A stretch of DNA of 64,000 nucleotides, taken from the NCBI RefSeq assembly GCF_988243305.1, contig NZ_OZ547136.1. One strand, 5' to 3'. Below are positions 43,032 to 64,000 of this stretch, piece by piece. Both the position numbers and the translations under genes were made by a program. The notes beneath the pieces are model-generated. The model saw only the letters and a program-made list of their open reading frames with translations, was not told where the DNA came from and searched no databases. Position 1 is the stretch's first letter; every line of letters starts with the position of its first letter.

Positions 43032-43033
43032 CT

Positions 43034-43889: not shown

Positions 43890-43965
43890 TTATGAGCTGG
43901 TTTGCTTGCCGGATGCGGCGTGAGCGCCTTATCCGGCCTACGGGGCGGTGCGAATGCAGGCGTCG
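43890..43965. repeat. REP element between wzc and wcaA
   Basis: palindromic gccggatgcggcgtgagcgccttatccggcctac unit. Confidence 0.8.
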
Positions 43966-46128: not shown

Positions 46129-46130
46129 TC

Positions 46131-46574
46131 TTATACCTGCTCTGCGTTCAATGCCTGCGCCCACTGGCGGGCAGACCGTTCAAGTAATGTGTACACCGCT
46201 GCAAACGTTTCCCGGCTTTTGCGATACGGATCGGGGATTTCACATTCGTTATCCCAGTGACCAAACAGCATCACTTTGCCGCGCATCTCAGGTGCCATCT
46301 CGCATAAGCGTTCGATATGGCGCTTTTCCATGGTCAAAATCAGGTCGTAGTTGCGACACAGGCGACGGCTGATTTGCCGTGCACAGTGACCTTCCAGAGA
46401 CAGTTGATGTTCTGCGGCGACGCTGATAGCAGTAGGGTCAGCGCCCTTACCGACCAGCGCGCCGAGTCCAGCGGACTCCACTTTCAGCTCCGGGTGATAA
46501 CGTTGCAGTAAGCGTTCCGCCGTCGGGGAACGGCAAATATTGCCGACACAGACAACTAAGATGTTGTTAAACAT
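46131..46574 (-). CDS. wzb: low-molecular-weight protein-tyrosine phosphatase
   Basis: 147 aa ORF with CVGNICRSP P-loop signature. Confidence 0.92.
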   Translation of the reverse strand: MFNNILVVCVGNICRSPTAERLLQRYHPELKVESAGLGALVGKGADPTAISVAAEHQLSLEGHCARQISRRLCRNYDLILTMEKRHIERLCEMAPEMRGKVMLFGHWDNECEIPDPYRKSRETFAAVYTLLERSARQWAQALNAEQV

Positions 46575-46579
46575 GACGA

Positions 46580-47719
46580 TTACCAGTTATGAATGTCGCT
46601 GGCTGTATCCGTCATGTAACGGACACCGCTAATAGTTGGCAGCAACTGATTGATCAGACGGTTCCAGCGGGAAACCGGGGCGGTGGTGACATACACCACG
46701 TCATAAGGTTGCAGGCGGAATTCTGTCGCCATCACCAGCGACGTGGCATCGGACATATCCAGCTGGTAGATATTGGCAATCTTGCCGTTACGCCCACCCT
46801 CGCCTTTCAGCGGACGAATGACAAAGATGCCGCTGGCGTTGGAGGTGGTCATGTCGATGCCTTCAGCATTGCCCAGGGCTTCAGTCAGGGTCATGCCGCT
46901 AAAGTCCATTTTCAGGGTGCTCTGTTTTTTAACTTCACCCATCACAAATACTTTCAGATCATCATTACGCGGCACGTAGAGAATATCGCCGGGGTAAAGC
47001 AGTCGGTTCTGATTGAGGTCGCCGTTTTGCATCAGCGCCTGCAAAGAAATGCGTTCTTCACGACCATTGTGTGTTAGCACCACGTTGCGCCAGTCAGCGG
47101 TGTCGGTCAGACCACCTGCGGCGTTGATGGCATCGAGAATGGTCAGTGGTACGTTGGTGATGGCCTGTTGACCGGATTTATTCACCTGACCTGAGATATA
47201 CGCTTTTTGCGAGCGGAAGGCGGCGATATTAACGTCCACCTGCGGGTCAGCGATGTACGTCGCTAAGCGCCCGGTAATATCACTGCGGATTTCAGCGAGC
47301 GTTTTCCCCACCACGTGAACTTTGCCGATATACGGGTAGAACATGGTGCCGTCAGGCTGTACCCAGTTGCCGGTGTCGCTGGAGCTGCGGTACTGACCGG
47401 CTGGCGTGGTAAGTTCCGGGTGATCCCAGACGGTGACATTAAGAACGTCCCCCGGCCCGACGCGATACTGGTAATTCGCGATCTCGCTTTCCAGCGTCAT
47501 ATTGGGGCGCGCTACGTTGGGTCGTGGGCGTAATTGATCAATCAGGCGCGGGGTCAACGGATAAACATTCACCATTTTGTCGAGATCGAAATCAGCGTCC
47601 TGCTGTTTGATGACGTCTTTGCCCATCGTCGACATATTGCTGCCCGGAAGTACTGTGCAACCGCTTATCAAGGTTACTGACACCAATAATGGCATCAATT
47701 TCATTTTGGATTTCATCAT
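46580..47719 (-). CDS. wza: outer membrane polysaccharide export lipoprotein
   Basis: 379 aa ORF with lipoprotein signal (LISGC); first gene of colanic acid operon. Confidence 0.92.
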
Positions 47720-47892
47720 TGTTTATTTATCACTTTGGCAGAGTAATTATCCTGTGCACTATTAATAGCAATGTCGCCATGCACATTTACCTTGCAGTTA
47801 ATTGAATAAAAATTTAACTGGCATCAGTCCTAAAAAAATTGATTTCATCCGCAGGCTATTGACAGAATAATTCAGACTGGTCTTTCAGGCAT

Positions 47893-47935
47893 CCAGACAC
47901 GCTACCGCCCCTGGCTTTTTAGCTACCAATACACT
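47893..47935 (-). promoter_or_regulatory. JUMPstart element with ops site in the leader of the colanic acid operon
   Basis: plus-strand cacgctaccgcc at 47898-47909, reverse complement of GGCGGTAGCGTG, about 180 nt upstream of the wza start. Confidence 0.8.
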
Positions 47936-48377
47936 GATTTAGCTTAATTTTTAAAACCCTCTCAACATACAGTCGTTGATGAGAAAGGGTTATTGCGGAA
48001 ATTAACTTCCGAATATAAGGTGACATTATGGTAATTGAATATTGGCTCTCCAATAATGCAGGAGGAAGTGTTACAGCTAACGGAATAGCAGGCAAGGTAA
48101 CAATTCGGCAATTGGCTATTTTTAAGAATTATATTAAGTGTCATTCAACATGGTTTTTAGGAGTTTCTTTAGGTTGACAATATTTAATATAGTGTCTCCA
48201 CATGCGATATTTCTTAAATAATGTTTTATTATTACCACTTTTAATTCAGGGATAATGTGAGGTTATAAACCTCAAATAATATGAGATAAATAGTGCTGCA
48301 ACATTGCATTTTTGCCCCGATTTATCCATGATCGAATTGTGACATTTGTCATACAACGAATAGGTTTTGTACTTACT

Positions 48378-49961
48378 ATGGAATGGATTGCCGATCCGTC
48401 TATCTGGGCCGGGTTAATCACGCTGATTGTGATCGAACTGGTCCTCGGCATTGATAACCTGGTCTTTATTGCCATCCTCGCCGAAAAACTACCGCCGAAG
48501 CAGCGCGACCGCGCACGGGTTACCGGGCTGCTGCTGGCGATGTTAATGCGCCTGTTACTGCTGGCGTCAATCTCCTGGCTGGTCACCCTGACACAACCGC
48601 TATTCAGCTTTCGCTCGTTTACCTTTAGCGCCCGCGACTTAATCATGCTGTTTGGTGGTTTCTTCCTGCTGTTCAAAGCCACGATGGAGCTGAACGAACG
48701 GCTGGAAGGGAAAGACAGCAATAACCCCACGCAACGCAAAGGTGCGAAGTTCTGGGGGGTGGTGACACAAATTGTGGTACTGGACGCCATCTTCTCACTC
48801 GACTCGGTGATTACCGCCGTCGGGATGGTCGACCATTTACTGGTCATGATGGCCGCCGTCGTTATCGCTATTAGCCTGATGTTGATGGCCAGCAAGCCGT
48901 TAACGCAATTTGTTAACAGTCACCCGACGATCGTTATTCTCTGCTTAAGCTTCCTGTTGATGATTGGCTTTAGCCTGGTGGCAGAAGGTTTCGGCTTCGT
49001 CATTCCGAAAGGCTACCTGTACGCTGCTATTGGTTTCTCGGTGATGATCGAGGCGCTCAATCAGTTGGCTATCTTTAACCGGCGACGTTTTCTTTCCGCT
49101 AACCAGACACTGCGCCAGCGGACTACCGAAGCGGTAATGCGCCTGCTTAGCGGGCAAAAAGAAGATGCGGAACTGGACGCCGAAACCGCGTCCATGCTGG
49201 TGGATCATGGTAACCAGCAGATCTTTAATCCGCAGGAACGGCGGATGATTGAGCGGGTACTTAATCTTAACCAGCGTACTGTCAGCAGCATTATGACGTC
49301 GCGCCACGATATTGAGCATATCGATCTCAACGCGCCGGAAGAAGAAATCCGCCAGTTGCTGGAGCGAAATCAGCATACGCGGTTGGTGGTTACCGACGGT
49401 GATGACGCAGAAGATTTGCTCGGTGTTGTTCACGTTATCGACCTGCTACAACAGTCACTGCGCGGCGAACCGCTCAACCTGCGGGTGTTGATTCGCCAGC
49501 CGCTGGTGTTCCCGGAAACCTTGCCGTTGTTACCTGCTTTGGAGCAGTTCCGTAATGCCCGCACACACTTTGCTTTTGTGGTGGATGAGTTTGGCTCGGT
49601 GGAAGGGATTGTGACATTAAGTGACGTCACGGAAACTATTGCCGGTAACTTGCCGAACGAAGTGGAAGAGATCGACGCCCGCCATGATATTCAGAAAAAC
49701 GCCGACGGTTCCTGGACGGCGAATGGTCATATGCCACTGGAAGATCTGGTGCAATATGTGCCGCTACCGCTGGATGAGAAACGCGAATATCACACCATTG
49801 CCGGGCTGCTGATGGAATATTTGCAGCGTATTCCAAAACCTGGCGAAGAAGTTCAGGTGGGGGATTATTTGCTTAAAACGTTGCAGGTGGAAAGCCATCG
49901 CGTGCAGAAGGTGCAGATTATACCGCTGCGTAAGGATGGCGAGATGGAGTACGAGGTGTGA
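48378..49961 (+). CDS. yegH: inner membrane protein with TerC-family membrane domain and CBS / CorC-HlyC C-terminal domains
   Basis: ORF 48312-49961; start set at [10 protein letters not shown] (ATG at 48378) to give 527 aa; domain call from recollection and hydrophobic N-terminal half. Confidence 0.8.
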
Positions 49962-50179
49962 TGGTATCGCCATTTTACCCGATGCTGCGTAACGCCTTAT
50001 AACTTCAGCAATGAAGCGATGTCTGTGGTACATGGACATCACAGCGGGGGTGTGGGTCCGGGTTGCCAGGGTGGTGGAGATTGAGCCACCCTGGCACGTT
50101 CACCGGCTTGAGCGTTCCATAGTAGCGAGGAACATCAAGTGAACGGAACAGCCTTCGATCTTACATATTCAGAATATAA

Positions 50180-50245
50180 TGGTGCCGCCACGAACGCCTG
50201 ATGCGACGCTTTACGCGTCTTATCAGGCCTACAGGACAGGTCACC
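50180..50245. repeat. REP element between convergent yegH and asmA
   Basis: gcctgatgcgacgctttacgcgtcttatcaggcctacagg palindromic unit. Confidence 0.8.
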
Positions 50246-50252
50246 TGGTAAA

Positions 50253-52106
50253 CTACATCTTCTCCAGCAACTTCTTCACATCTTTGCCATTGCGGGAATC
50301 TTTATTCCGCTCGGCCCAGTCATTCAGGCGACGTTTCGCTTCGTCCTGTAGATGTTTGCGCAGCAGCTGGTCCACTTGCAGGCTGTAATTGAGTTGCTGC
50401 CAGTTGCCATAAACCCGCAGCGGTACTGGCGTTTCTTTGAGGAAATCAATCAGTTTGCTTTCTCCGTTCCATCCACCCACGACCCGAATATCAAACTGGG
50501 TGTCGCAGGTTTGCTCCGCCAGATTCAACGTACCAGCCCCGGAAAGCGCCAGCACAGGCGATTGACCTTGCATGTCGTTTAACGTCACGACGCCATCCTT
50601 CAACGTCAAATAGGTGGTAAAGCGGTCAAGACGCGTCACGTTATCGAAGTTTTCAGCGGCCTTCACATCACCACCATTACGTTCTACCGCTTGCTGAATC
50701 ATCTGCTGGAAGTTCATCCCTTCCATGCGTGTGTCGGTCATTTCGACATGTGCCTGTCCTTGCCAGTTGTGGCGGAATGCGTCGGCATCTATGTCAGCAC
50801 CGGAGAAATCACCAGCCAGTGACATCTTTCCGGTCAACGAAATCGGATAGTTAAACGCCTTCAGAATGGTGCCTATCTCAACGTTTTCCAGCCGTGGCTG
50901 GAAGTTTATCCGCGGATTTATTGATGTCGCGTCCAGCGTGCCCGGCAGTGAAACCTGTCCACCGTTAAGCTTGCCCTGCAGTTGAGTAATTTCCAGCAAA
51001 CCCGACTTGTTGGTCATTTGCGTGGCAACATCTGTAAAATTCATTCCGCGCCAGCGCACGTTACTGGCCTGCAACAAAATATCAGCCGTAAAGCCTTGCA
51101 GTCCCTGATAGGCCGGTTCATCAATACGCGAAGAAATGACCGGGCGCGGCAACGTTGATTGGCTCTGCCCCTGCTGCGCGGCACCGTTTTCACCGTTCGC
51201 TGTTTCATTAAGCGGGATGAGGTTGTCAAGATTCAGTTGCGGGAATTGCAGTCTCAGCTGCCATTCCGGTTTCTCTGTCAACGTGACCTGTGCTTGCCCG
51301 CTCAGCGTACTGTCATTGGCGGTCAAACTAATTTGGTTAAATGAAAGGCGTTTATGTGACTCCTGCCACTGGGCCTGGAAACTCCCCTGCCCCTGAATAC
51401 CTTGTTTTGGTAAATCTGCACCCTGCAACTGCCAGTTAATTTGTTCAATAGCCGCCGTTAAATCATGCGGATAATCAGAAGCATCTACCGTACCGTTAAG
51501 GGATATCGTGAGATCGCGCTGATCGCGATTAACCCGCCCGGAGAACTCAAATGAGCCACGATGTTGGGGATCTTGTTCCATTTGCAGACGGATATTGCGG
51601 ATTGTCACCTGCTCGTCATCTTCATGCTGGAACACCAGCACGCTGTCCGCCACCTTAAGACTGGATATATCAAACGACCATCCGCGATCGTCTGACAGAT
51701 CCGGCAAGGTATTGTCGCGCGGTGCAACCGGAGCGTCTTCACTGCGCACCGCTTCCGTCTGCGGCGTCAGTTGGATCACTGCCCCTTTTAGCATCACCTG
51801 CTTAACGCTCAGTTGATGACTCAGTAGTGGTAAAAGCGCCACGTCCAGACGCATGTTGTCGGCGCGAACCAGTGGCTGGCTCGCGCCCTGGGCGGTGAGA
51901 GACATTCGCCCGGAGAGGATACTAAGCTGCGGCCAGACGTGCCAACGCAGTGGCCCGTCGAGCTGCAATTGATAACCGCTACGTGCAGCAACTTGCTTGA
52001 CCATATAGTCGCGGAAATCATTCGGATTCACCAGCAACACTAACGCAGATAACCCGGCCACCAGCACGACCAGGAGTATCATCAGCGTCGTCAGAAATCG
52101 TCTCAT
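50253..52106 (-). CDS. asmA: AsmA, outer membrane assembly / lipid transport family protein
   Basis: 617 aa ORF with N-terminal TM anchor, conserved position upstream of dcd. Confidence 0.88.
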   Translation of the reverse strand: MRRFLTTLMILLVVLVAGLSALVLLVNPNDFRDYMVKQVAARSGYQLQLDGPLRWHVWPQLSILSGRMSLTAQGASQPLVRADNMRLDVALLPLLSHQLSVKQVMLKGAVIQLTPQTEAVRSEDAPVAPRDNTLPDLSDDRGWSFDISSLKVADSVLVFQHEDDEQVTIRNIRLQMEQDPQHRGSFEFSGRVNRDQRDLTISLNGTVDASDYPHDLTAAIEQINWQLQGADLPKQGIQGQGSFQAQWQESHKRLSFNQISLTANDSTLSGQAQVTLTEKPEWQLRLQFPQLNLDNLIPLNETANGENGAAQQGQSQSTLPRPVISSRIDEPAYQGLQGFTADILLQASNVRWRGMNFTDVATQMTNKSGLLEITQLQGKLNGGQVSLPGTLDATSINPRINFQPRLENVEIGTILKAFNYPISLTGKMSLAGDFSGADIDADAFRHNWQGQAHVEMTDTRMEGMNFQQMIQQAVERNGGDVKAAENFDNVTRLDRFTTYLTLKDGVVTLNDMQGQSPVLALSGAGTLNLAEQTCDTQFDIRVVGGWNGESKLIDFLKETPVPLRVYGNWQQLNYSLQVDQLLRKHLQDEAKRRLNDWAERNKDSRNGKDVKKLLEKM

Positions 52107-53759: not shown

Positions 53760-56700
53760 ATGAGCAAACAATCACAGCATGTATTAATTGCCCTGCCCCA
53801 CCCGCTGCTTCACCTGGTCAGTTTAGGTTTAGTCTCGTTTATCTTTACCCTTTTCTCGCTTGAGCTTTCGCAGTTTGGCACCCAACTCGCCCCACTGTGG
53901 TTCCCGACGTCCATCATGATGGTGGCGTTTTATCGCCATGCCGGGCGTATGTGGCCGGGGATTGCGCTGAGCTGCTCACTGGGAAATATCGCCGCATCCA
54001 TCCTGCTTTTTTCCACCAGCTCGCTGAACATGACCTGGACGACCATCAATATTGTTGAAGCCGTGGTCGGGGCAGTGCTACTGCGTAAATTGCTGCCGTG
54101 GTATAACCCATTGCAAAATCTGGCTGACTGGCTGCGTCTGGCACTCGGCAGCGCCATTGTTCCGCCTCTGTTGGGGGGTGTTCTGGTTATCCTGCTGACG
54201 CCCGGAGACGATCCTCTCAGGGCATTTTTGATATGGGTACTGTCAGAATCCATCGGCGCACTGGCACTGGTGCCACTGGGATTGTTATTTAAACCACACT
54301 ATCTGCTGCGCCATCGCAACCCAAGGTTGCTTTTTGAGTCGCTGCTCACGTTAGCCATCACACTGACGTTAAGCTGGCTTTCGATGCTGTATCTGCCGTG
54401 GCCTTTTACTTTCATTATTGTGCTGTTGATGTGGAGCGCCGTGCGCCTGCCACGAATGGAAGCCTTTTTGATCTTCCTTACCACGGTGATGATGGTGTCA
54501 CTGATGATGGCCGCGGATCCCTCCCTGCTTGCTACGCCGCGTACATACCTGATGAGCCATATGCCGTGGCTACCGTTTTTGCTGATCCTGCTGCCCGCCA
54601 ACATCATGACCATGGTGATGTATGCCTTTCGTGCGGAACGCAAACACATTTCCGAAAGCGAAACCCGCTTTCGGAACGCGATGGAATATTCCGCTATCGG
54701 TATGGCGTTAGTGGGCACCGAGGGACAATGGCTGCAATCCAACAAAGCACTCTGCCAGTTTCTCGGTTACAGTCAGGAAGAGCTGCGCGGACTCACCTTT
54801 CAGCAACTGACCTGGCCGGAGGATCTCAATAAAGATCTGCAACAGGTTGAAAAGCTGATCAGCGGTGAAATAAACACCTATTCAATGGAAAAACGCTACT
54901 ACAACCGCAATGGCGATGTTGTCTGGGCGTTGCTTGCCGTCTCACTGGTGCGCCACACGGATGGCACGCCGCTCTATTTTATCGCTCAGATTGAAGACAT
55001 TAACGAGCTAAAACGCACCGAACAGGTGAATCAGCAACTGATGGAGCGCATCACGCTGGCTAACGAAGCGGGCGGGATTGGCATCTGGGAGTGGGAGCTT
55101 AAGCCGAATATTTTTAGCTGGGATAAGCGGATGTTCGAGCTGTATGAAATTCCTCCGCATATCAAACCGAACTGGCAGGTGTGGTACGAGTGCGTGCTGC
55201 CGGAAGATCGCCAGCATGCCGAAAAAGTGATTCGTGATTCGTTGCAATCACGCTCTCCCTTTAAACTGGAATTTCGCATTACCGTGAAAGACGGCATTCG
55301 CCATATCCGCGCCCTCGCTAACCGGGTACTGAATAAAGAAGGCGAAGTCGAACGCCTGCTCGGCATTAATATGGATATGACCGAGGTAAAACAGCTTAAC
55401 GAGGCATTGTTTCAGGAAAAAGAGCGCCTGCACATTACGCTGGATTCCATCGGCGAAGCCGTGGTCTGTATTGATATGGCAATGAAAATTACCTTTATGA
55501 ATCCGGTGGCGGAGAAGATGAGCGGCTGGACGCAGGAAGAAGCGTTAGGTGTTCCACTCCTGACGGTGTTGCATATTACTTTTGGCGACAACGGACCATT
55601 AATGGAGAACATTTACAGTGCCGACACCTCACGTTCCGCGATTGAACAAGATGTGGTGTTGCACTGCCGAAGCGGCGGCAGCTACGACGTGCATTACAGT
55701 ATTACGCCGTTAAGTACTCTGGACGGCAGCAATATTGGTTCGGTTCTGGTGATTCAGGACGTCACCGAATCGCGCAAAATGCTGCGCCAGCTGAGCTACA
55801 GCGCCTCCCATGATGCACTGACGCATCTCGCCAATCGCGCCAGTTTTGAGAAGCAACTACGCATCCTGCTGCAAACGGTAAACAGTACACATCAGCGACA
55901 TGCACTGGTGTTTATCGATCTTGATCGCTTTAAAGCGGTGAATGACAGCGCCGGGCACGCCGCTGGCGACGCTTTACTGCGCGAACTGGCGTCATTGATG
56001 CTGAGTATGCTGCGCTCCAGCGACGTGCTGGCGCGACTCGGTGGCGATGAATTTGGTCTGCTGCTGCCAGATTGTAATGTCGAAAGTGCGCGTTTTATCG
56101 CTACACGCATTATCAGCGCCGTGAATGACTATCACTTTATCTGGGAAGGACGTGTACATCGGGTAGGTGCCAGTGCCGGGATTACCTTGATTGATGACAA
56201 CAATCATCAGGCGGCTGAAGTGATGTCGCAGGCTGATATCGCCTGTTATGCCTCCAAAAATGGTGGCCGGGGCCGGGTGACGATTTACGAACCGCAGCAA
56301 GCTGCCGCACATAGCGAACGGGCGGCGATGTCGCTTGATGAACAGTGGCGGATGATTAAAGAGAATCAGTTGATGATGATCGCCCACGGTGTCGCTTCGC
56401 CGCGGATCCCGCAAGCGCGTAATTTGTGGCTGATTTCACTTAAGCTCTGGAGTTGCGAAGGCGAGATTATTGATGAACAAACATTTCGTCGTAGCTTCAG
56501 CGATCCGGCACTTAGCCATGCTCTTGACCGACGGGTATTCCACGATTTTTTCCAGCAGGCCGCCAAAGCGGTTGCCAGTAAAGGTATAAGCATCGCCCTC
56601 CCGCTTTCCGTTGCCGGTTTGAGTAGCGCCACGCTGGTGAATGAACTAATTGAGCAGCTGGAAAATAGCCCTCTACCACCACGGTTATTACATCTGATTA

Positions 56701-57077
56701 TTCCGGCAGACGCGATTTTAGATCACGCAGAAAGCGTGCAAAAACTGCGGCTGGCGGGATGTCGGATCGTATTCAGTCAGGTGGGCCGCGATCTGCAAAT
56801 CTTCAACTCGCTGAAAGCGAATATGGCAGATTACCTGCTACTTGATGGTGAGTTATGCGCCAACGTGCAGGGAAATTTGATGGATGAGATGCTGATTACG
56901 ATCATTCAGGGGCACGCTCAGCGGCTCGGGATGAAGACCATCGCCGGGCCAGTAGTTTTACCCCTGGTGATGGATACGCTTTCTGGCATCGGCGTCGATC
57001 TGATTTATGGCGATGTGATTGCCGATGCCCAACCGCTGGATTTGCTGGTGAATAGCAGTTATTTCGCGATTAACTGA
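53760..57077 (+). CDS. dgcE: membrane-anchored diguanylate cyclase (sensory N-terminus, GGDEF domain, C-terminal EAL-like region)
   Basis: 1105 aa ORF; hydrophobic N-terminal third; GGDEF motif present (RLGGDEFGLLL); no canonical EAL motif seen in the C-terminal region. Confidence 0.88.
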   Translation: MSKQSQHVLIALPHPLLHLVSLGLVSFIFTLFSLELSQFGTQLAPLWFPTSIMMVAFYRHAGRMWPGIALSCSLGNIAASILLFSTSSLNMTWTTINIVEAVVGAVLLRKLLPWYNPLQNLADWLRLALGSAIVPPLLGGVLVILLTPGDDPLRAFLIWVLSESIGALALVPLGLLFKPHYLLRHRNPRLLFESLLTLAITLTLSWLSMLYLPWPFTFIIVLLMWSAVRLPRMEAFLIFLTTVMMVSLMMAADPSLLATPRTYLMSHMPWLPFLLILLPANIMTMVMYAFRAERKHISESETRFRNAMEYSAIGMALVGTEGQWLQSNKALCQFLGYSQEELRGLTFQQLTWPEDLNKDLQQVEKLISGEINTYSMEKRYYNRNGDVVWALLAVSLVRHTDGTPLYFIAQIEDINELKRTEQVNQQLMERITLANEAGGIGIWEWELKPNIFSWDKRMFELYEIPPHIKPNWQVWYECVLPEDRQHAEKVIRDSLQSRSPFKLEFRITVKDGIRHIRALANRVLNKEGEVERLLGINMDMTEVKQLNEALFQEKERLHITLDSIGEAVVCIDMAMKITFMNPVAEKMSGWTQEEALGVPLLTVLHITFGDNGPLMENIYSADTSRSAIEQDVVLHCRSGGSYDVHYSITPLSTLDGSNIGSVLVIQDVTESRKMLRQLSYSASHDALTHLANRASFEKQLRILLQTVNSTHQRHALVFIDLDRFKAVNDSAGHAAGDALLRELASLMLSMLRSSDVLARLGGDEFGLLLPDCNVESARFIATRIISAVNDYHFIWEGRVHRVGASAGITLIDDNNHQAAEVMSQADIACYASKNGGRGRVTIYEPQQAAAHSERAAMSLDEQWRMIKENQLMMIAHGVASPRIPQARNLWLISLKLWSCEGEIIDEQTFRRSFSDPALSHALDRRVFHDFFQQAAKAVASKGISIALPLSVAGLSSATLVNELIEQLENSPLPPRLLHLIIPADAILDHAESVQKLRLAGCRIVFSQVGRDLQIFNSLKANMADYLLLDGELCANVQGNLMDEMLITIIQGHAQRLGMKTIAGPVVLPLVMDTLSGIGVDLIYGDVIADAQPLDLLVNSSYFAIN

Positions 57078-57093
57078 GGCGTGCTTCCCCATC

Positions 57094-57117
57094 GCCTGAT
57101 GCGGCGTATCAGGCCTA
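57094..57117. repeat. REP element overlapping the alkA stop codon
   Basis: gcctgatgcggcgtatcaggcctac palindrome. Confidence 0.75.
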
Positions 57118-57972
57118 CAATTCGTCCGTTCCGTCTGGTTGCCAGCCTTCCGTATACCAGATATGCAACAGCGCATAAGAACGCCAGGGCTTCCAGCGTT
57201 CGGCATAACGGCGGATTTGTGCCGGTGTCATTCCCGGAAATCGCTGTTTAATCAGATAATCATCCGGCAGGAAAACATCTTTCGCCTGCCAGCCACGTAA
57301 GGCGAAATAATTCGCCGTCCAGCGCCCGATACCCGGAAAAGTTTGCAGCGTTTTCATCGCTTGCTCTACGTCGCCCGGAAATGTCATTGGTAAGGTGCCC
57401 TCCAGCGCCGCATTTGCCAGATGAATCAGTGCCTCTGCCCGTTTCAACGGCATACCTAACGCTTTTAATGCCTGCGGGTCGGCTGCAGCCAGCCGCTGAG
57501 GCGTGGGGAAGCAGACATAATCCGGAAAATCATCCAGCCGTTCGCCATAAAGCTGTGCCACTCTGGCGGTCAATTTTGCCGCCATCGCCACGCTCACCAG
57601 TTGGCCTAAAATCGCCCGCACGCCCTGCTCAAAAGCATCAACACTGCCGGGTAAACGCAATCCGGGCCGCGCCGCGCCTAACTTGCCCAACGCACCGTTA
57701 ACAATCTGCGGGTTACATTGCAGATCAAACAGGCGGCTCATTTTCGCCAGACACTCTGCGGCAACAGGTTCTAAACCTGCACTTAAATTTATGTGCAGAG
57801 TATGGCGGGCTATATCCGGAATAGCAGTCACCACGCCGCGATATTCGCCCACCGCCAGACTACGGGCATAATAATCGTCAGCGACCGTTTCCACACCGTT
57901 CACCGCACGGGCGGCGAGAAATCCCAACATCCACGACCAGTCATACGGCGGCTGCCAGTTCAGGGTATACAT
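57115..57972 (-). CDS. alkA: 3-methyladenine DNA glycosylase II
   Basis: 285 aa ORF starting MYTLNWQPPYDW. Confidence 0.92.
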   Translation of the reverse strand: MYTLNWQPPYDWSWMLGFLAARAVNGVETVADDYYARSLAVGEYRGVVTAIPDIARHTLHINLSAGLEPVAAECLAKMSRLFDLQCNPQIVNGALGKLGAARPGLRLPGSVDAFEQGVRAILGQLVSVAMAAKLTARVAQLYGERLDDFPDYVCFPTPQRLAAADPQALKALGMPLKRAEALIHLANAALEGTLPMTFPGDVEQAMKTLQTFPGIGRWTANYFALRGWQAKDVFLPDDYLIKQRFPGMTPAQIRRYAERWKPWRSYALLHIWYTEGWQPDGTDEL

Positions 57973-58024
57973 CGCATCTCCTTGTTAATCCGCTTTCAGC
58001 ATAAACGTTATTCAGACGTTACGC

Positions 58025-58032
58025 TTTGCTTT
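58025..58032 (-). promoter_or_regulatory. candidate Ada box in alkA promoter
   Basis: plus-strand tttgcttt is AAAGCAAA on the alkA strand, about 55 bp upstream of the alkA start; matches my recollection of the Ada recognition sequence. Confidence 0.45.
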
Positions 58033-58105
58033 CATATTCCGGTTGTCGCGACGGCAACATTTCGCTAAAGTCACGCCCCTTCTTCACCGGCATGGGGATT
58101 ATTTC

Positions 58106-59458
58106 GTGTTTATTGGTTTTGATTACGGTACAGCAAACTGTTCAGTGGCGGTCATGCGCGACGGTAAACCGCATTTGCTAAAAATGGAAAACGACAGCAC
58201 GCTGCTGCCTTCAATGCTTTGCGCGCCAACGCGTGAAGCGGTAAGCGAATGGCTGTACCGCCATCATGATGTTCCGGCAGACGACGATGAAACGCAGGCG
58301 CTGCTGCGTCGGGCGATTCGTTATAACCGCGAAGAAGATATCGATGTTACGGCGAAAAGCGTGCAGTTCGGTCTTTCCTCACTGGCACAGTACATTGATG
58401 ATCCAGAAGAAGTGTGGTTTGTGAAATCACCAAAATCGTTCCTCGGTGCCAGCGGCTTAAAACCGCAGCAGGTAGCGCTGTTTGAGGATCTGGTCTGCGC
58501 AATGATGTTGCACATTCGCCAGCAGGCGCAGGCACAGCTGCCAGAAGCGATTACTCAGGCGGTGATTGGTCGCCCTATCAACTTCCAGGGGCTGGGCGGC
58601 GATGAAGCAAACACCCAGGCGCAGGGGATTCTGGAACGCGCGGCGAAGCGTGCCGGGTTTAAGGATGTGGTATTCCAGTACGAGCCGGTCGCGGCTGGGC
58701 TGGATTACGAAGCCACCTTGCAGGAAGAAAAACGGGTGCTGGTGGTGGATATCGGCGGTGGTACGACTGACTGTTCATTGCTGCTGATGGGGCCGCAGTG
58801 GCGTTCGCGTCTCGATCGTGAAGCCAGCCTGCTGGGTCACAGTGGTTGCCGTATTGGCGGTAACGATCTGGATATCGCACTGGCGTTTAAAAACCTGATG
58901 CCGTTACTGGGCATGGGTGGCGAAACCGAAAAAGGCATCGCCCTGCCGATTCTGCCGTGGTGGAATGCGGTTGCCATCAACGACGTACCTGCGCAAAGTG
59001 ATTTCTACAGTAGTGCCAACGGTCGTCTGCTTAACGATCTGGTACGCGATGCCCGCGAACCGGAAAAAGTGGCCCTGTTACAGAAAGTCTGGCGTCAGCG
59101 TTTAAGCTATCGCCTGGTACGTAGCGCAGAAGAGAGCAAAATTGCGCTTTCAAGCGTAGCGGAAACCCGCGCCTCACTGCCGTTTATCAGCGATGAACTG
59201 GCTACGCTGATTAGCCAGCAAGGGCTGGAAAGCGCCCTCAACCAGCCACTGATGCGGATTCTGGAACAGGTGCAACTGGCGCTGGATAACGCCCAGGAAA
59301 AACCGGATGTCATCTACCTGACCGGCGGTAGCGCCCGTTCGCCGCTGATTAAAAAAGCGCTGGCAGAACAGTTGCCGGGCATTCCGATTGCAGGCGGCGA
59401 TGACTTTGGCTCCGTCACCGCCGGGCTGGCACGCTGGGCGGAGGTGGTGTTTCGTTAA
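58106..59458 (+). CDS. yegD: Hsp70/actin-fold ATPase family protein
   Basis: ORF 58043-59458 begins at TTG; likely true start is GTG at 58106 (MFIGFDYGTANCSVAV), giving 450 aa; DYGT and DIGGGTTD motifs. Confidence 0.85.
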   Translation: MFIGFDYGTANCSVAVMRDGKPHLLKMENDSTLLPSMLCAPTREAVSEWLYRHHDVPADDDETQALLRRAIRYNREEDIDVTAKSVQFGLSSLAQYIDDPEEVWFVKSPKSFLGASGLKPQQVALFEDLVCAMMLHIRQQAQAQLPEAITQAVIGRPINFQGLGGDEANTQAQGILERAAKRAGFKDVVFQYEPVAAGLDYEATLQEEKRVLVVDIGGGTTDCSLLLMGPQWRSRLDREASLLGHSGCRIGGNDLDIALAFKNLMPLLGMGGETEKGIALPILPWWNAVAINDVPAQSDFYSSANGRLLNDLVRDAREPEKVALLQKVWRQRLSYRLVRSAEESKIALSSVAETRASLPFISDELATLISQQGLESALNQPLMRILEQVQLALDNAQEKPDVIYLTGGSARSPLIKKALAEQLPGIPIAGGDDFGSVTAGLARWAEVVFR

Positions 59459-59470
59459 TTGAAAACTGGC

Positions 59471-61417
59471 TCAGCAACGGCTTAAATCAGCCTGCGCCTG
59501 AGCCAGTTTTTCTGCCGCCTGACGTAACGGTTCCATCAACGGCATGGTCCGTGCTGGAGCATGAAGGCGGAATCGCTGCAACTCTGTCGCACCGACAGTC
59601 AGCGCCGATTCCAGCCGATGTCGTTTGGCGGCCATTTTTGCCATTACCGCTTGTCTGTCTGCAGGCGTTACCGCTTCGTTCGGCCTGAAAACAAAACGGC
59701 GTTCGCAACTCGCTTTCCAGTCGATAACCGCCTGGGTCAGATGATCACCAAAACCTTTTACTTGCTTAACGCTCCGTCGGGTAACGTCTGCCGCCGTTTC
59801 AATACCAAAGGACCGTAACGCCGCTTTACGCGCAGGGCCAACGCCGGGAATAGAGGCAACATCAATAAAAAATCCCTCCAGAAACTTCTGCTTCTGCCGT
59901 TCCCTTGCGGTGTCCTGAAGTGCTGCCAGATCGCGCTTTTCTTCTTCCGGTAACCCAAGAATTTCGTCCTTCATTTTTTCGAGCATCGTCCGTTTGGCGA
60001 TAAAACCTTCCAGCCCGCCCAACCGTTGGATCTGGCTGACTAAATGGTCATAGTCCATTTTCGCGCGATTAAACGCCTCACGGCGTTGCTGGATTTCTGC
60101 TTTGTACGCTTTGCTTGTCAGGCTGCCAATAATCCAGATAGCCGCCAGCACAGGAACCAAAATAATATAACGCGGTTCTGCCTGAAGGCCGCAAAGCAAC
60201 AGCGATAACGCTGACAGTGCGATCTCAATCAGAATGATGTATTCGCGCCGTAACAGGCCTAAAGGAAGCGGCCTGCCAGTCAGTTGGAAATGATCGGGTA
60301 ATGGCAGTTGCAATGCTGGCGGTGCTACTGACGCCATCACCATCGCCCAGACTTTCGCCAGCACAAAATCACCGCTGGTGGTAATGACCTCTTCGCCGAG
60401 ATCAATAAAATAGATAACGCCTTGATTATCCAGCGCACACCACGGGCAGTCAGTCAAATGACCGGGGTAAACATGCATTGCCGAAACGGTACATTTCTTT
60501 AACTGTTGGCGTAGTAAATCAAGTGCCGCAACCCACGCTTTTGCCGTCGGACGCCCGGTTGCCACGCCACTTTCCGTGAATGCCTGCTGAAACATGGTTT
60601 CAACATCGCCCGGTAACATCGACAGCGGAATAGATCGTGGCGGCGGTTTTAAACCACGTCGCTGATTATCTGACGCGTAGGCATAACGGAAATGGGCAAT
60701 ATCCGTCTCCAGTGCATTACCCGCATCAGAGACAAGCGGTACACCGGAATAAGGATGCCGCCCACCAAACAAGACGTGAAAAATCAGCAACGCAAGGCCA
60801 AAATTATCGTGATTCGCGGTGCGTTCAAAGCCGACAAATGATGGCAAGGTTTGCAGCTCTGGCGGCGTAAAATGCGACACGCCGACTTCGCATAAATGCA
60901 GCGTGCCATTGGCGTTAATCTGAAAGGAGTCGCTATCAATCAACACCACTTTGCTGTCACGGCCTACCATAAAGCTGTTCTGGTTTACGTCACCCACGAC
61001 ATGCCCGTGCTCGTGAACCGTAGCAAAAGATGAAGCAATATTGCGCGCAACATAGAGTAGAAAATCCCACGCACAATGAGGGTAACGTTGGCGACGATGT
61101 GCCGGGCTATAGATCATATGAATCGGTTCTTTACCAGAAACTTTTGGCATCATAAAACCGATAACCTTTCCGCCTCGTCCACCGTGAAGCGTTGCCTGCG
61201 GCCAGGCGACATAATTCAACAATTGCGCGTCAGCTGTCGCAGCCATAAAGGCAAGTTTGTCCTGTTTTAAGGCGGGTGGCGGCGTGTGATAAATCTTGGC
61301 GACACTATCGACAAACTCCTCGATATCATAAACCGCGCCTTCGCCACCTTTTCCCAGTTCACGCCCGAGAGTGGTCAATTCACCTGTCGATGTAAATACT
61401 TTTATATTTGTCTTCAT
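59471..61417 (-). CDS. yegI: eukaryotic-like Ser/Thr protein kinase family membrane protein
   Basis: 648 aa ORF; N-terminal glycine-rich loop LGKGGEGAVY followed by VAKIY lysine motif; central hydrophobic segments; C-terminal extension. Confidence 0.85.
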   Translation of the reverse strand: MKTNIKVFTSTGELTTLGRELGKGGEGAVYDIEEFVDSVAKIYHTPPPALKQDKLAFMAATADAQLLNYVAWPQATLHGGRGGKVIGFMMPKVSGKEPIHMIYSPAHRRQRYPHCAWDFLLYVARNIASSFATVHEHGHVVGDVNQNSFMVGRDSKVVLIDSDSFQINANGTLHLCEVGVSHFTPPELQTLPSFVGFERTANHDNFGLALLIFHVLFGGRHPYSGVPLVSDAGNALETDIAHFRYAYASDNQRRGLKPPPRSIPLSMLPGDVETMFQQAFTESGVATGRPTAKAWVAALDLLRQQLKKCTVSAMHVYPGHLTDCPWCALDNQGVIYFIDLGEEVITTSGDFVLAKVWAMVMASVAPPALQLPLPDHFQLTGRPLPLGLLRREYIILIEIALSALSLLLCGLQAEPRYIILVPVLAAIWIIGSLTSKAYKAEIQQRREAFNRAKMDYDHLVSQIQRLGGLEGFIAKRTMLEKMKDEILGLPEEEKRDLAALQDTARERQKQKFLEGFFIDVASIPGVGPARKAALRSFGIETAADVTRRSVKQVKGFGDHLTQAVIDWKASCERRFVFRPNEAVTPADRQAVMAKMAAKRHRLESALTVGATELQRFRLHAPARTMPLMEPLRQAAEKLAQAQADLSRC

Positions 61418-61617
61418 AATGTTTTAAGGGCAGTCATATTATATTTTAATGAATAATAACACTGCCCATTATAATTATTTCCATATTGGAAGAGTCCCAC
61501 TCAAGAATAAAAATGATAATGCAATTTCATCAGGATACAATTCAATTCCAACCTGATAATGATTCACTTCCACAGATTTTTTGCTAACTTTTACTACACA
61601 GGGATTCTGGAAAAAAG

Positions 61618-62079
61618 ATGAAAAAGATATTACTTATGTTGAGTCTGCTATTTTTTACTACCGCGGGCTTTAGTGAAGTTTCGGATACGTTAGTGACGGG
61701 AGGTTATGATAAACAAGCGATGTCTGACGCCATTCAACATGCGCGGAAAGAAACCGATCAATTCATCGAAATTATGAATAAAAAAGATGCCGATACTTTC
61801 GCGGTCAAAGCCCCGATAACCGATCACGGAAGAACAGAGCATTTCTGGCTTACGGATGTCACTTATTCTAACGGCATGTTTATTGGCGTAATAAGCAATG
61901 ACCCTGGTATTGTTACAAACGTAGAATATGGTCAGGAGTGGAAAATCAAGAAAGAAGATATTTCAGACTGGATGTATACGCGCGGGGATAAAATTTACGG
62001 CGGTTATACCATTGATCCTTTATTAGTCACCTATCCAAAAGAAGAAGCCGACGAGCTAAGAGCAAAATTAGTTCGCTAA
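61618..62079 (+). CDS. yegJ: secreted protein of unknown function
   Basis: 153 aa ORF with N-terminal signal peptide (MKKILLMLSLLFFTTAGFS); AT-rich. Confidence 0.8.
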   Translation: MKKILLMLSLLFFTTAGFSEVSDTLVTGGYDKQAMSDAIQHARKETDQFIEIMNKKDADTFAVKAPITDHGRTEHFWLTDVTYSNGMFIGVISNDPGIVTNVEYGQEWKIKKEDISDWMYTRGDKIYGGYTIDPLLVTYPKEEADELRAKLVR

Positions 62080-62143
62080 CCAGCCATTATATTGATTGCT
62101 TAAACTGGCGGTTGAACTGTTGTCTTCAACCGCCATGCGATGT

Positions 62144-62905
62144 TCATTCTGTCCACAGCGCCAGTGCCAACGTTTTATCATCATCCGTACGCTCGTTTAC
62201 CGCCGGGCTGGACAAAAACTGCTTTAACAATTCAGGTAATAAATCGAGTTGTTCCTGCGTTGCTGACGCCAGTCCATTGAAAAACGGGGTAAAAAAAGGC
62301 ACATGCGGAGAATTATTCAACATATTTAACGCCAGCCTCTGAATACCATCCGTAAATGCTGCAACTTTATGCGCACGCTCAGTACTGGTGTAAGTTTCCA
62401 GTCTGGAAACAGCATCGTCATCGGTAATGAAGTGCGTCATGTTGGCATATTCACCCACCATCGGCGTGAGAGGCAATTGCAGACCGTGACCCAAATCTAC
62501 CACCATGCCGCCATCGCCAATCTGCATAATCAAGGTGCCGTCAGGCGATGAAATCAGTCCCAGAAATGTACAGGCAAAATCGCGAACCGCTAATTCTTTG
62601 GCCTCTGCCTCGGCAAAAAGTCGCTGACGAATGGTCAGCACAATATCCGTGGCGAGGACATCATTAAGCCCCAATTCCCCACCCTGCACTTTTTGCGACA
62701 TATAAGCCATCGCTTCATTGACGGCGAGCATCGCGCCTTCGCCACCCTGCGAGACGCTGCCTGCGCCATCAGCGACAAATACCGACAATAATGGCTGCTG
62801 GTCATTTAACCAGGCAACCTGCATCTGGCAGGCATCCTGGCAAGGCAAGTCCGCGCTGATGTGCGACGTTCCAACGGTTGATGCATAGACCAGACGCCAG
62901 CTCAC
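62144..62905 (-). CDS. yegK: PP2C-family protein phosphatase
   Basis: 253 aa ORF; acidic metal-binding motifs (VADGAGS, DGG); 4-bp overlap with yegL. Confidence 0.82.
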
Positions 62906-63561
62906 ACTGACGTCCAGCCTTTTGGCGCTTCCAGCACAACTTCCGTTCCCGGCGTGGAGCGGGAAACCGAACGCAGCGAACTGGATAACCAGCTAAACAG
63001 TTCACGGAATTGTAATCCCTGCAGTGGCAAAGGCTGACGAACGCTGATTTGTGCCAAAGTCTTCATATCCGCCCCCTGAACACCGATGGAAAAGAAGGCA
63101 AACTTCTTATCTTCTTCCCCCTGAAACACTTTGTTGGCGGCAGCCTGCCACTCATCGGTTGGAGCGCCATCGGTGATCAGGAAAATCCACGGGCGATAAT
63201 AGGAAATACCATTGGCGCGATACTCACGTTTGCGCTCCTCAACCATATCCAGGGCTTTGGTAATGGCGGCCCCCATTGGTGTATCGCCCTGGGCAAACAG
63301 GATGGGCGGGAAAAAATTAGCGGCGCTGGTAAAGGGTTGTTCCACATGCACCGGGCCGAACGTCACAATACCGAGTTCCACTCTTTTTAAGGCCAGCGGA
63401 TCGGCAAGCAGTTCATCGCGAAAGGTAACCAATCCGGCGTTAAGTTCATTAATAGGTCTACCACTCATCGAACCAGAAACATCCAACAGCAAAATGCAGG
63501 GGCAACGTGGTTCCGGGTTACTGGCAAAATCGCTGGTGGCAAACGTGATTTGTTCGCTCAT
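62902..63561 (-). CDS. yegL: von Willebrand factor A domain protein
   Basis: 219 aa ORF with MIDAS-like motif LLLDVSGSM. Confidence 0.82.
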
Positions 63562-63739
63562 AAGAAATCCTTTCTTAGAGAATTATTGAGGTCCGGTATC
63601 ATACCGATTGCAATAATGAAATAAGAGCAAACGAAGAAACTTTCAGAATTAGGCCCGGCGGCGCAGAAAATTTTGCTATTCGCCTCGCAAGAACGGAGAG
63701 CCGTCGATTGACACTAAGGGCGGAGTGACATAATTTCAG

Positions 63740-63885
63740 GAGTGAGGGTTAGGGAGAGGTTTCTCCCTCCCCCTGGTGTTCTTAGTAAGCCTGGAAGCTA
63801 ATCACTAAGAGTATCTCCAGTATGATGACGTGCTTCATCATAACCCTTTCCTTATTAAAAGCCCTCTTCTCCGGGAGAGGGTTTC
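63740..63885 (+). ncRNA. Sib-family antisense RNA (antitoxin of Ibs), boundaries approximate
   Basis: plus-strand region fully overlapping the minus-strand Ibs ORF, ending at a hairpin plus T-tract; locus position after yegL matches the recalled sib/ibs location; 5' end not determinable from sequence. Confidence 0.5.
63782..63841 (-). CDS. Ibs-family type I toxin, 19 aa hydrophobic peptide
   Basis: hand translation of the minus strand gives MMKHVIILEILLVISFQAY followed by a stop; not in the ORF track because it is below the length cutoff. Confidence 0.65.
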   Translation of the reverse strand: MMKHVIILEILLVISFQAY

Positions 63886-63890
63886 CCGTT
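63861..63890 (+). terminator. rho-independent terminator, probably of the Sib RNA
   Basis: hairpin ccctcttctccgggagaggg followed by tttcccgtttc. Confidence 0.6.
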
Positions 63891-64000
63891 TCAGCGTCCC
63901 GCTGAAATCGTCGGCTTACCTCCTTTCGCCCTGAATGCAGTCTATCGCTAACGCGTGAACAAAATAGTTTCCTCTGTGATTATTGCGTAACGACTCGCAA

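What the first reader, a model, noticed from the sequence alone, without database searches (positions are those of the whole stretch)
63740..63890. Ibs/Sib type I toxin-antitoxin locus; the toxin carries polar residues inside the hydrophobic core
A 19-codon minus-strand ORF (63782-63841), absent from the ORF track because of its size, translates to MMKHVIILEILLVISFQAY, which matches the Ibs toxin family pattern. The plus strand across it ends in a hairpin and T-tract, as expected for the antisense Sib RNA. Compared with my recollection of Ibs peptides as uniformly hydrophobic, this copy has Glu at position 9 and Gln at position 17. A charged residue mid-helix could weaken membrane insertion and toxicity, so this may be a naturally attenuated toxin. 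K-12 has two tandem ibs/sib copies here; only one complete copy is visible before the window ends.
Basis: partly seen in the sequence, partly recalled or inferred. Interest (0 to 1): 0.5.

Follow-up and report, generated by a model that had tools for sequence, protein, structure and literature searches.

The report
Known sibA/ibsA toxin-antitoxin locus, rare allele
This is the well-known E. coli SibA/IbsA small-toxin/antisense-RNA pair; the "odd" glutamine is the normal residue, while the mid-helix glutamate is a real, rare natural variant already in RefSeq whose effect on toxicity has never been tested.

Summary
Window 63782-63841 (-) translates to MMKHVIILEILLVISFQAY, and the opposite strand is SibA (Rfam SIB_RNA, 145.9 bits against a gathering score of 56). 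The locus lies next to yegL, as in E. coli K-12.

Q17 is the reference IbsA residue, and position 17 varies among IbsA-E (Q/P/S/A). E9 is a genuine V9E change (GTG>GAG, window 63816). Position 9 is V or I in all five K-12 Ibs peptides and V in Citrobacter, so E9 is derived.

The exact E9 ORF occurs in 15 of 5,426 complete E. coli genomes; 4,310 carry the K-12 allele. All 15 share one distinctive ibsA-yegD haplotype, and PGAP already annotates the peptide there (WP_072146903.1). E9 is always linked to a second SNP at 63764. The window carries the same segment on a different yegL/pphC/yegJ background, which implies recombination or an old polymorphism.

V9E puts a charge in the middle of the 12-residue hydrophobic stretch (about +3 kcal/mol insertion cost). 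It is also predicted to break a U-A pair in SibA (MFE -58.5 to -54.8 kcal/mol). Attenuated toxicity is plausible but untested. This is a known system carrying a minor allele, so interest is low.

The parts
63708..63734 (+). sibA promoter: -35 TTGACA (63708-63713), a 15-nt spacer, and an extended -10 TGaCATAAT (63726-63734)
   Evidence: Read directly from the sequence. The Rfam SIB_RNA model begins at the TTGACA and includes this stretch. The generic sigma-70 scan did not call it because the spacer is 15 nt, outside its 16-18 nt rule. The stretch is identical to K-12 from 63722 onward.
63744..63887 (+). SibA antisense RNA (antitoxin), 144 nt
   Evidence: K-12 sibA (b4436) coordinates transferred by alignment. 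Rfam RF00113 scores 145.9 bits. The consensus fold of 8 Sib units has 42 pairs, 11 of them with compensatory changes.
63782..63841 (-). ibsA ORF: 19 codons plus stop, encoding MMKHVIILEILLVISFQAY (V9E allele of IbsA); it lies wholly inside sibA (SibA +39 to +98)
   Evidence: Translation. It is 95% identical to K-12 IbsA. The identical 60-nt ORF is annotated as ibsA, protein WP_072146903.1, in 15 RefSeq records.
63844..63853 (-). ibsA Shine-Dalgarno region (AAGGAAAGGG, ending 2 nt before the ATG); it overlaps the SibA region equivalent to TRD2
   Evidence: Read from the sequence. Nearly invariant across the 8 aligned Sib units. The TRD2 equivalent maps to window 63841-63860 (domains defined for SibC in PMC2943612).
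63788..63810 (+). Equivalent of SibC target-recognition domain 1 (TRD1), SibA +45 to +67
   Evidence: SibC +46 to +68 (PMC2943612) mapped through alignment A4. This is inferred by homology and has not been shown for SibA.
63816..63816 (.). SNP giving V9E (plus strand T, against A in K-12; codon GTG>GAG); SibA position +73, 6 nt 3' of the TRD1 equivalent
   Evidence: This position is A in all 7 other Sib units aligned. RNAfold predicts loss of the U-A pair in the CUGGUG/CACCAG stem, with SibA MFE going from -58.5 to -54.8 kcal/mol.
63764..63764 (.). Linked second SNP (T, against C in K-12); SibA +21, in the loop of the 5' hairpin and outside the ORF
   Evidence: Present in the window and in all 15 E9 records, and in none of the three V9 genomes compared. 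No intermediate haplotype exists among 5,426 genomes. Its predicted effect on folding is neutral, -58.8 against -58.5 kcal/mol.
63862..63884 (+). SibA intrinsic terminator: an 8-bp hairpin (CCCTCTTC-TCCG-GGAGAGGG) followed by TTT. Read on the minus strand, the same palindrome is followed by CTTTTAATAA just upstream of the ibsA ribosome-binding site.
   Evidence: RNAfold. The scanner called the minus-strand reading. The stem shows compensatory changes across Sib units.

Best explanation
Window 63708-63887 is the first unit (sibA/ibsA) of the chromosomal Ibs/Sib type I toxin-antitoxin array that lies between yegL and mdtA in E. coli.

Established for this family, not tested here: the minus strand encodes a 19-residue hydrophobic inner-membrane peptide, IbsA, whose overproduction depolarises the membrane and stops growth. 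The plus strand makes the roughly 144-nt SibA RNA, which is perfectly complementary to the whole ibsA coding region and ribosome-binding site. SibA pairs with the ibsA mRNA and causes its degradation, so the toxin is normally not made.

Shown here: this copy differs from the reference by two linked point changes. One, at 63816, converts Val9 to Glu. The other, at 63764, lies in a SibA hairpin loop. Gln17 is the normal IbsA residue. V9E is a rare derived allele. It is fixed in one E. coli haplotype (15 of 5,426 complete genomes) and also occurs in this window on a different flanking background. It is already annotated in RefSeq.

Inferred: because toxin and antitoxin are read from the same DNA, the change keeps perfect complementarity and lies outside both recognition domains, so repression should still work. 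A charged residue in the middle of the 12-residue hydrophobic stretch most likely lowers membrane insertion and therefore toxicity. I put roughly 55% on a measurable reduction. On that reading the allele is a tolerated, mildly defective or neutral polymorphism rather than a new function.
For: Locus identity: Rfam SIB_RNA at 145.9 bits; alignment to annotated K-12 sibA/ibsA; yegL/pphC/yegJ neighbours; 99.8% identity to records annotated ibsA.

Q17 is normal: K-12 and 4,310 genomes carry the Q17 ORF exactly, and position 17 varies among IbsA-E.

E9 is rare and derived: 15 exact matches against 4,310. V or I occupies position 9 in IbsA-E. Citrobacter has V9 encoded by GTG, with its first 45 nt identical to K-12. 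The E9 24-mer has no hits in GTDB species representatives or in JGI metagenome contigs.

Single haplotype: all carriers share an ibsA-yegD block with at most 2 differences in 5.2 kb, and the nearest non-carrier is 97.6% identical.

Second background: the window is identical to the carriers from 63487 to 64000 except at 63592 (and at 63959 in nine records), but it has 58 further mismatches upstream in yegL/pphC and it carries yegJ.

Physics: GRAVY drops from 1.98 to 1.58, and the single substitution costs about +3 kcal/mol on the Hessa 2005 scale (scale values are from memory).

Literature: the hydrophobic centre of IbsC (residues 6-19) determines its toxicity (PMC8309996, PMC9860968). The SNP lies outside the TRD1 and TRD2 equivalents.
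Against: No experiment on this allele exists in the literature I could search.

Ibs peptides tolerate many mutations. A minimal toxic IbsC needs only about 10 hydrophobic residues, and the E9 peptide still has 10 in positions 5-16. An alanine scan of Salmonella IbsA found only H3 and L11 to be essential. Frameshifted IbsC was reported to stay toxic, although that claim is disputed. So E9 may not attenuate the toxin at all.

The carrier haplotype is so young (at most 2 SNPs in 5 kb) that the absence of further decay in ibsA or sibA says nothing about selection.

K-12 IbsA may be a weak or cross-repressed toxin anyway: expressing ibsA in cells deleted for ibsA/sibA was not lethal (PMC2943612).

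The ibsA promoter was not located.
Confidence: 0.88

Rival explanations
1. V9E is functionally silent for the toxin. The peptide still inserts into the membrane, with Glu protonated or snorkelling, and remains as toxic as wild type on overexpression. The allele is then a neutral polymorphism that hitch-hiked with its haplotype.
For: Ibs peptides tolerate extensive mutation. A 15-residue core with about 10 hydrophobic residues is enough. Only H3 and L11 were essential in the Salmonella IbsA alanine scan. The E9 peptide keeps 10 hydrophobic residues in positions 5-16 and keeps all family-invariant residues: M1, M2, I6, I7, L11, L12, S15, Y19.
Against: Position 9 is V or I in every reference Ibs peptide and across genera. 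The reviews identify the hydrophobic centre as the determinant of toxicity. A mid-segment Glu costs about 3 kcal/mol. An alanine scan does not test charged substitutions.
Confidence: 0.35
2. The relevant effect is at the RNA level. A73U in SibA, and the mirror U>A in the ibsA mRNA, weakens the stem at the base of the TRD1 hairpin. That would change RNA stability, processing or pairing kinetics, and so the set-point of toxin expression. The amino-acid change would be a by-product.
For: RNAfold predicts that the CUGGUG/CACCAG stem loses its U-A pair. SibA MFE goes from -58.5 to -54.8 kcal/mol, and the 207-nt ibsA-sense RNA tested with both SNPs goes from -77.9 to -70.9 kcal/mol. The outer four pairs of this stem are supported by G-C to A-U covariation. 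The position is A in all other aligned Sib units. The first 45 nt of ibsA are identical between E. coli and Citrobacter, with no synonymous changes, which suggests constraint on the nucleotides themselves.
Against: The affected pair is not part of the family consensus structure, and SibC has a G.A mismatch at the same place. The SNP lies outside both mapped recognition domains. Conservation of this A is equally well explained by the need for an NUN (hydrophobic) codon. The energies are predictions only.
Confidence: 0.15
3. V9E is a change or gain of function. A membrane-embedded carboxylate drives helix oligomerisation or proton conduction, or it alters binding to the Fo a/b subunits. The allele has then spread between backgrounds under positive selection.
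For: The same 0.5-kb segment with both SNPs sits on two different flanking haplotypes, consistent with transfer by recombination. The carriers are geographically and ecologically dispersed: Japan, USA, Italy, Spain, Taiwan, and an Australian marsupial. Salmonella IbsA acts through specific protein contacts rather than generic membrane damage. From general knowledge, polar residues can drive association of transmembrane helices.
Against: The allele is very rare (0.28% of complete genomes) and absent from the species representatives and metagenome contigs scanned. Sharing across two backgrounds fits neutral recombination in a known recombination-rich region equally well. There is no functional evidence.
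Confidence: 0.06
4. The E9 codon is a sequencing or assembly error in the window.
For: It is a single-base difference from the common allele.
Against: The identical 144-nt SibA unit with both SNPs is present in 15 independently assembled complete genomes.
Confidence: 0.01

Closest known systems
E. coli K-12 sibA/ibsA (b4436/b4667), the first unit of the yegL-mdtA Ibs/Sib array
   Same: Same genomic position next to yegL. The 144-nt RNA has the same ends, promoter and terminator. The 19-codon ORF sits inside it on the opposite strand. Three of the 144 SibA positions differ (63764, 63816, 63881). The peptide matches at 18 of 19 residues, including Q17.
   Different: Val9 is replaced by Glu (GTG>GAG). 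A linked C>T change lies at SibA +21, and a G in place of C in the terminator stem perfects that stem. The flanking yegL/pphC are about 4% diverged from K-12.
RefSeq protein WP_072146903.1 ('type I toxin-antitoxin system Ibs family toxin', gene ibsA) in 15 complete E. coli records, e.g. WP4-S18-ESBL-07, O7:H15 strain ST70, MS 69-1, NRZ14408
   Same: The 60-nt ORF and the whole 144-nt SibA unit are identical, including both SNPs. From 63487 to 64000 there are only 1-2 mismatches.
   Different: Those genomes lack yegJ and carry a distinct yegL-pphC-yegI haplotype that is 96.8-97.6% identical to the window. The window therefore carries the allele on another background.
IbsC/SibC, the experimentally dissected member (Fozo 2008; Han 2010, PMC2943612; Mok 2010)
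   Same: Same architecture: a cis-antisense RNA covering the ribosome-binding site and ORF of a 19-residue hydrophobic peptide. The conserved helices are shared. The peptide is 68% identical.
   Different: It is a different paralogue at a different locus (fau-serA). TRD1 and TRD2 were mapped only for SibC. IbsC has an uninterrupted aliphatic core (I9). ibsA is reported to be cross-repressed by non-cognate Sib RNAs.
Salmonella Typhimurium IbsA (bioRxiv 10.1101/2025.05.26.656083)
   Same: A 19-residue Ibs-family toxin with a SibA antisense RNA. The basic residue at position 3 and L11, which are required there, are both retained here as K3 and L11.
   Different: It lies at the yqiK-rfaE locus, so it is positionally an ibsD/E orthologue. 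Its target (Fo subunits a and b) was shown only in Salmonella, and no charged-core variant was tested.

Membership tests
Ibs/Sib type I toxin-antitoxin (Rfam RF00113 SIB_RNA plus Ibs peptide) | An antisense RNA that matches the SIB_RNA covariance model above the gathering score | tested here: met
   145.9 bits against a gathering score of 56; full-length model match 1-147 at window 63708-63856 (+).
Ibs/Sib type I toxin-antitoxin | An 18-19 codon ORF on the opposite strand, wholly inside the Sib RNA, with the Ibs pattern (MM-K/R ... aliphatic core ... S-F-x-A/T-Y) | tested here: met
   The ORF at 63782-63841 (-) corresponds to SibA +39 to +98. It is 95% identical to K-12 IbsA. All family-invariant residues are present: M1, M2, I6, I7, L11, L12, S15, Y19.
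Ibs/Sib type I toxin-antitoxin | An uninterrupted aliphatic core (positions 5-14 are V, I or L in all reference members) | tested here: not met
   Glu at position 9. IbsA-E and the Citrobacter Ibs have V or I there. This is a property of the known members rather than a formal criterion. It bears on activity, not on homology.
Ibs/Sib type I toxin-antitoxin | A Shine-Dalgarno sequence upstream of the ATG, covered by the antisense RNA | tested here: met
   AAGGAAAGGG at 63844-63853 (-), inside SibA and inside the TRD2 equivalent.
Ibs/Sib type I toxin-antitoxin | The Sib RNA has its own promoter and an intrinsic terminator | tested here: inconclusive
   The TTGACA and TGaCATAAT elements and the hairpin plus TTT are visible, and in the stretch aligned with K-12 (63722 onward) they are conserved. 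The consensus scanner called no promoter, because the spacer is 15 nt, and it called the hairpin only on the minus strand. Transcription was not measured.
sibA/ibsA orthologue (as opposed to sibB-E) | Position directly downstream of yegL, as the first unit of the array before mdtA, with the IbsA-specific residues H4 and Q17 | tested here: met
   yegL ends at 62902 and the intergenic region aligns with K-12. H4 and Q17 are present. mdtA lies beyond the window end; it follows the array in all 15 closest records.
Ibs/Sib type I toxin-antitoxin | Tandem repetition of the unit in the same intergenic region | not testable with these tools
   The window ends at 64000, about 75 nt before the next unit would begin. 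Relatives have 2-4 units.
Ibs/Sib type I toxin-antitoxin | The peptide is toxic when overproduced, and the cognate Sib RNA represses it | not testable with these tools
   This needs expression assays. It is published for K-12 members only, and never for the E9 allele.

The most novel reading that the evidence does not exclude
V9E is not a defect but a functional variant. A carboxylate buried mid-membrane would change how IbsA oligomerises, conducts protons or binds its Fo target. On this reading, the roughly 0.5-kb sibA/ibsA segment carrying it has moved between unrelated E. coli backgrounds by recombination because it is advantageous.
Probability: 0.06. Interest if true: 0.45.

Novelty: already known. 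Interest (0 to 1): 0.13.

Why it matters
It matters little beyond annotation. The locus is a textbook type I toxin-antitoxin pair, and the exact variant peptide already has a RefSeq accession.

The one point of modest value is that nature has supplied a charged-core Ibs allele, in strains that can be obtained (for example MS 69-1 and O7:H15 strain ST70). It could serve as a ready-made test of whether Ibs toxicity needs an uninterrupted hydrophobic helix. It could also show how a single base change plays out at once in a toxin, its mRNA and its perfectly complementary antitoxin.

The case also shows that a 19-codon gene missed by ORF tracks is recovered reliably through the Rfam model on the opposite strand.

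Tried and rejected
I therefore could not survey all natural Ibs variants for charged core residues. The comparison is limited to IbsA-E, six IbsB-type array variants and two Citrobacter sequences.

2. The primary papers are not held: Mok et al. 2010 (PMC3009890) and Fozo et al. 2008 (PMC2597788). Their content is cited only through reviews.

3. Exact scans for the E9 24-mer found nothing in GTDB species representatives or in JGI metagenome contigs. The source lineage of the window was not identified. Every part of the window tested is only 98.0-98.7% identical to its best complete E. coli genome.

4. The generic promoter scan found nothing in 63560-64000. I could not place the ibsA promoter. 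By analogy with the 159-nt ibsC mRNA it should lie roughly within 63890-63960 on the minus strand.

5. I looked for single-SNP intermediates between the K-12-like and E9 haplotypes and found none at full length.

6. Gene conversion from a paralogous ibs copy as the source of E9 is rejected, because no paralogue has Glu or an A at that codon position.

7. Sequencing error is rejected.

Full report
**1. Observation.** The minus-strand ORF at 63782-63841 translates to MMKHVIILEILLVISFQAY*. The opposite strand matches the Rfam covariance model RF00113 (SIB_RNA) over its full length at 63708-63856, with 145.9 bits against a gathering score of 56. Aligning the annotated K-12 MG1655 locus places SibA (b4436) at window 63744-63887 and ibsA (b4667) at 63782-63841. 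Upstream lie yegL (62902-63561, -), pphC/yegK (62144-62905, -) and yegJ (61618-62076, +), as in K-12.

**2. Anatomy.** The following elements are read from the sequence and conserved in the alignments:
- a -35 TTGACA at 63708-13, a 15-nt spacer, and an extended -10 TGaCATAAT at 63726-34;
- the RNA start near 63744;
- the ibsA ORF on the other strand at SibA +39 to +98;
- its Shine-Dalgarno AAGGAAAGGG at 63844-53;
- an 8-bp G+C hairpin at 63862-81 followed by TTT.

A consensus fold of eight Sib units (the window, K-12 SibA-E and two Citrobacter sequences) gives 42 pairs, 11 of them with compensatory changes. The generic promoter scan called nothing, because the spacer falls outside its rule. 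It called the hairpin only on the minus strand. The SibC recognition domains defined experimentally by Han et al. (PMC2943612) map to window 63788-63810 (TRD1) and 63841-63860 (TRD2).

**3. The two flagged residues.** Annotated K-12 sequences give:
- IbsA: MMKHVIILVILLVISFQAY
- IbsB: MMKLLIIVVLLVISFPAY
- IbsC: MMRLVIILIVLLLISFSAY
- IbsD: MMKLVIILIVLLLVSFAAY
- IbsE: MMKLVIILVVLLLLSFPTY

Q17 is therefore the normal IbsA residue, and position 17 is the family's variable position. Position 9 is V or I in all five peptides. The window has Glu there through a single change, GTG>GAG (plus-strand T at 63816, where K-12 has A).

**4. Frequency and polarity.** The exact 60-nt E9 ORF occurs in 15 records among 5,426 complete E. 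coli genomes. The exact K-12 ORF occurs in 4,310. PGAP annotates the E9 peptide as gene ibsA, protein WP_072146903.1, with the generic product name 'Ibs family toxin'. The E9 24-mer is absent from 100,044 species-representative genomes and from the JGI metagenome contigs. With the SNP position left open, the same pattern finds Citrobacter youngae and Citrobacter sp. MGH106. Both encode MMKHVIILVILLVISLPAY, with GTG at codon 9 and the first 45 nt identical to K-12. V9 is therefore ancestral and E9 derived. The equivalent base is A in all seven other Sib units aligned.

**5. Haplotype structure.**
- *Linkage:* E9 is always accompanied by a second SNP at 63764 (C>T, SibA +21, in a hairpin loop). 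The window and all 15 records have both, the three V9 genomes compared have neither, and no full-length intermediate exists.
- *The carriers:* the 15 records represent 14 strains, because NRZ14408 appears twice. They come from Japan, the USA, Italy, Spain, Taiwan and an Australian marsupial. They share an ibsA-yegL-pphC-yegI-yegD block with at most 2 differences in 5.2 kb. That block lacks yegJ, and its nearest non-carrier relative is only 97.6% identical. On the mdtA/mdtB side the same strains differ by up to 127 positions in 4.3 kb, and their arrays hold 2-3 ibs copies. So recombination breakpoints fall in or near the array.
- *The window:* it matches the carriers from 63487 to 64000 except at 63592 (and at 63959 in nine records). 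It then diverges, with 58 more mismatches in the 1.3 kb of yegL/pphC, and it carries yegJ.
- *Conclusion:* the E9 segment therefore sits on at least two backgrounds. That implies a short recombination tract or an old polymorphism. Every tested part of the window is only 98.0-98.7% identical to its best complete E. coli genome, and I could not name the source lineage.

**6. Mechanism.** Established for the family (reviews and primary work read): Ibs peptides are small inner-membrane toxins whose overproduction depolarises the membrane. Each Sib RNA is encoded opposite its ibs gene, pairs with the mRNA through TRD1 (inside the ORF) or TRD2 (the translation-initiation region), and triggers degradation. 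In Salmonella, IbsA binds Fo subunits a and b and lowers ATP; of the residues scanned with alanine, only H3 and L11 were essential.

Inferred for this copy: toxin and antitoxin share the same DNA, so the SNP keeps perfect complementarity. It lies 6 nt outside the TRD1 equivalent and far from TRD2. Cognate repression, and the reported cross-repression of ibsA, should therefore persist.

At the peptide level, V9E splits the stretch V5-F16 into 4 + 7 apolar residues. It lowers GRAVY from 1.98 to 1.58 and costs about 3 kcal/mol on the Hessa 2005 scale (scale values from memory). Reviews of Mok et al. 2010 say that the hydrophobic centre (residues 6-19) determines IbsC toxicity, but also that about 10 hydrophobic residues suffice. 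The E9 peptide still has 10 in positions 5-16. I therefore rate a measurable loss of toxicity at about 55%, not as established.

In SibA the SNP is A73U. RNAfold predicts that the CUGGUG/CACCAG stem at the base of the TRD1 hairpin loses its U-A pair, taking the MFE from -58.5 to -54.8 kcal/mol. The 63764 change alone is neutral at -58.8 kcal/mol. The ibsA-sense RNA loses the mirror pair. The outer four pairs of this stem covary (G-C to A-U). The affected fifth pair is not part of the family consensus, and SibC has a mismatch there. So this remains a weaker rival. The complete nucleotide identity of codons 1-15 between E. coli and Citrobacter does suggest constraint on the RNA as well as on the peptide.

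**8. Comparison, novelty, verdict.** This is the known sibA/ibsA locus. It passes every sequence-level membership test. The exception is the uninterrupted aliphatic core, which is a property of the known members and bears on activity rather than on homology. The variant peptide is already in RefSeq.

The carrier haplotype is too young (at most 2 SNPs in 5 kb) for the intactness of ibsA and sibA to say anything about selection. What remains is a rare, derived, untested allele: a convenient natural reagent for Ibs structure-function work, but not a surprise. I rate novelty as already known and interest as low (0.13).

The most novel reading not excluded is that the buried carboxylate changes function and that the segment spread by selection. 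I give that about 6%.

Noticed in passing
window 1-64000 (tested: 1-10000, 40000-52000, 56000-63700): Every stretch tested is only 98.0-98.7% identical to its best match among 5,426 complete E. coli genomes, and the best-matching strains differ from stretch to stretch. The window comes from a lineage that is poorly represented there, or from a mosaic of the recombination-rich his-rfb-wca-yeg region. The source organism was not identified.
   Followed up: partly
window 63487-63592 (boundary); 62153-63486: There is an abrupt change in relatedness. Downstream of about 63487 the window is nearly identical to the 15 E9 carriers. Upstream, yegL/pphC carry 58 mismatches to the carriers, and 18 of those positions differ from all four references compared. 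This looks like a recombination breakpoint at the 3' end of yegL.
   Followed up: partly
window 61618-62076 (+); compare L004 6689-6740: yegJ is a presence/absence polymorphism. The window, K-12 and CFSAN061770 have it between yegI and pphC. ABU 83972 and all E9 carriers lack it, and in them yegI overlaps pphC by 4 nt.
   Followed up: partly
L001, L004-L018, L011 (ibs arrays between ibsA and mdtA): The array holds 2 to 4 units in different strains. The 18-residue IbsB-type peptides vary mainly at residues 4-5 and at the aromatic residue before P-A-Y (F, Y or W). Among the E9 carriers, the mdtA/mdtB side differs by up to 127 positions in 4.3 kb, while the ibsA-yegD side differs by at most 2 in 5.2 kb. 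This suggests that the repeat array is a recombination hotspot.
   Followed up: partly
L019 3010-3069 (+), L020 7325-7384 (+): Citrobacter youngae and Citrobacter sp. MGH106 carry an IbsA-type gene whose first 45 nt are identical to E. coli K-12 ibsA, with no synonymous changes across genera. This is consistent with constraint on both RNA strands, or with recent horizontal transfer. I did not distinguish between the two.
   Followed up: no
window 63862-63881: The SibA terminator hairpin is palindromic. On the minus strand it is followed by CTTTTAATAA, directly upstream of the ibsA ribosome-binding site. It could act as a bidirectional terminator or as a 5'-UTR structure of the ibsA mRNA. The ibsA promoter itself was not found.
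   Followed up: no
window 22123-22161 (-), 47898-47936 (-), 28718-28885 (+), 33411-33481 (+), 33275-33324 (-): Other Rfam matches above the gathering score: two JUMPstart elements (expected upstream of the O-antigen and colanic-acid operons), three naRNA4 (REP-type) elements, and one 'algC RNA' motif.
   Followed up: no
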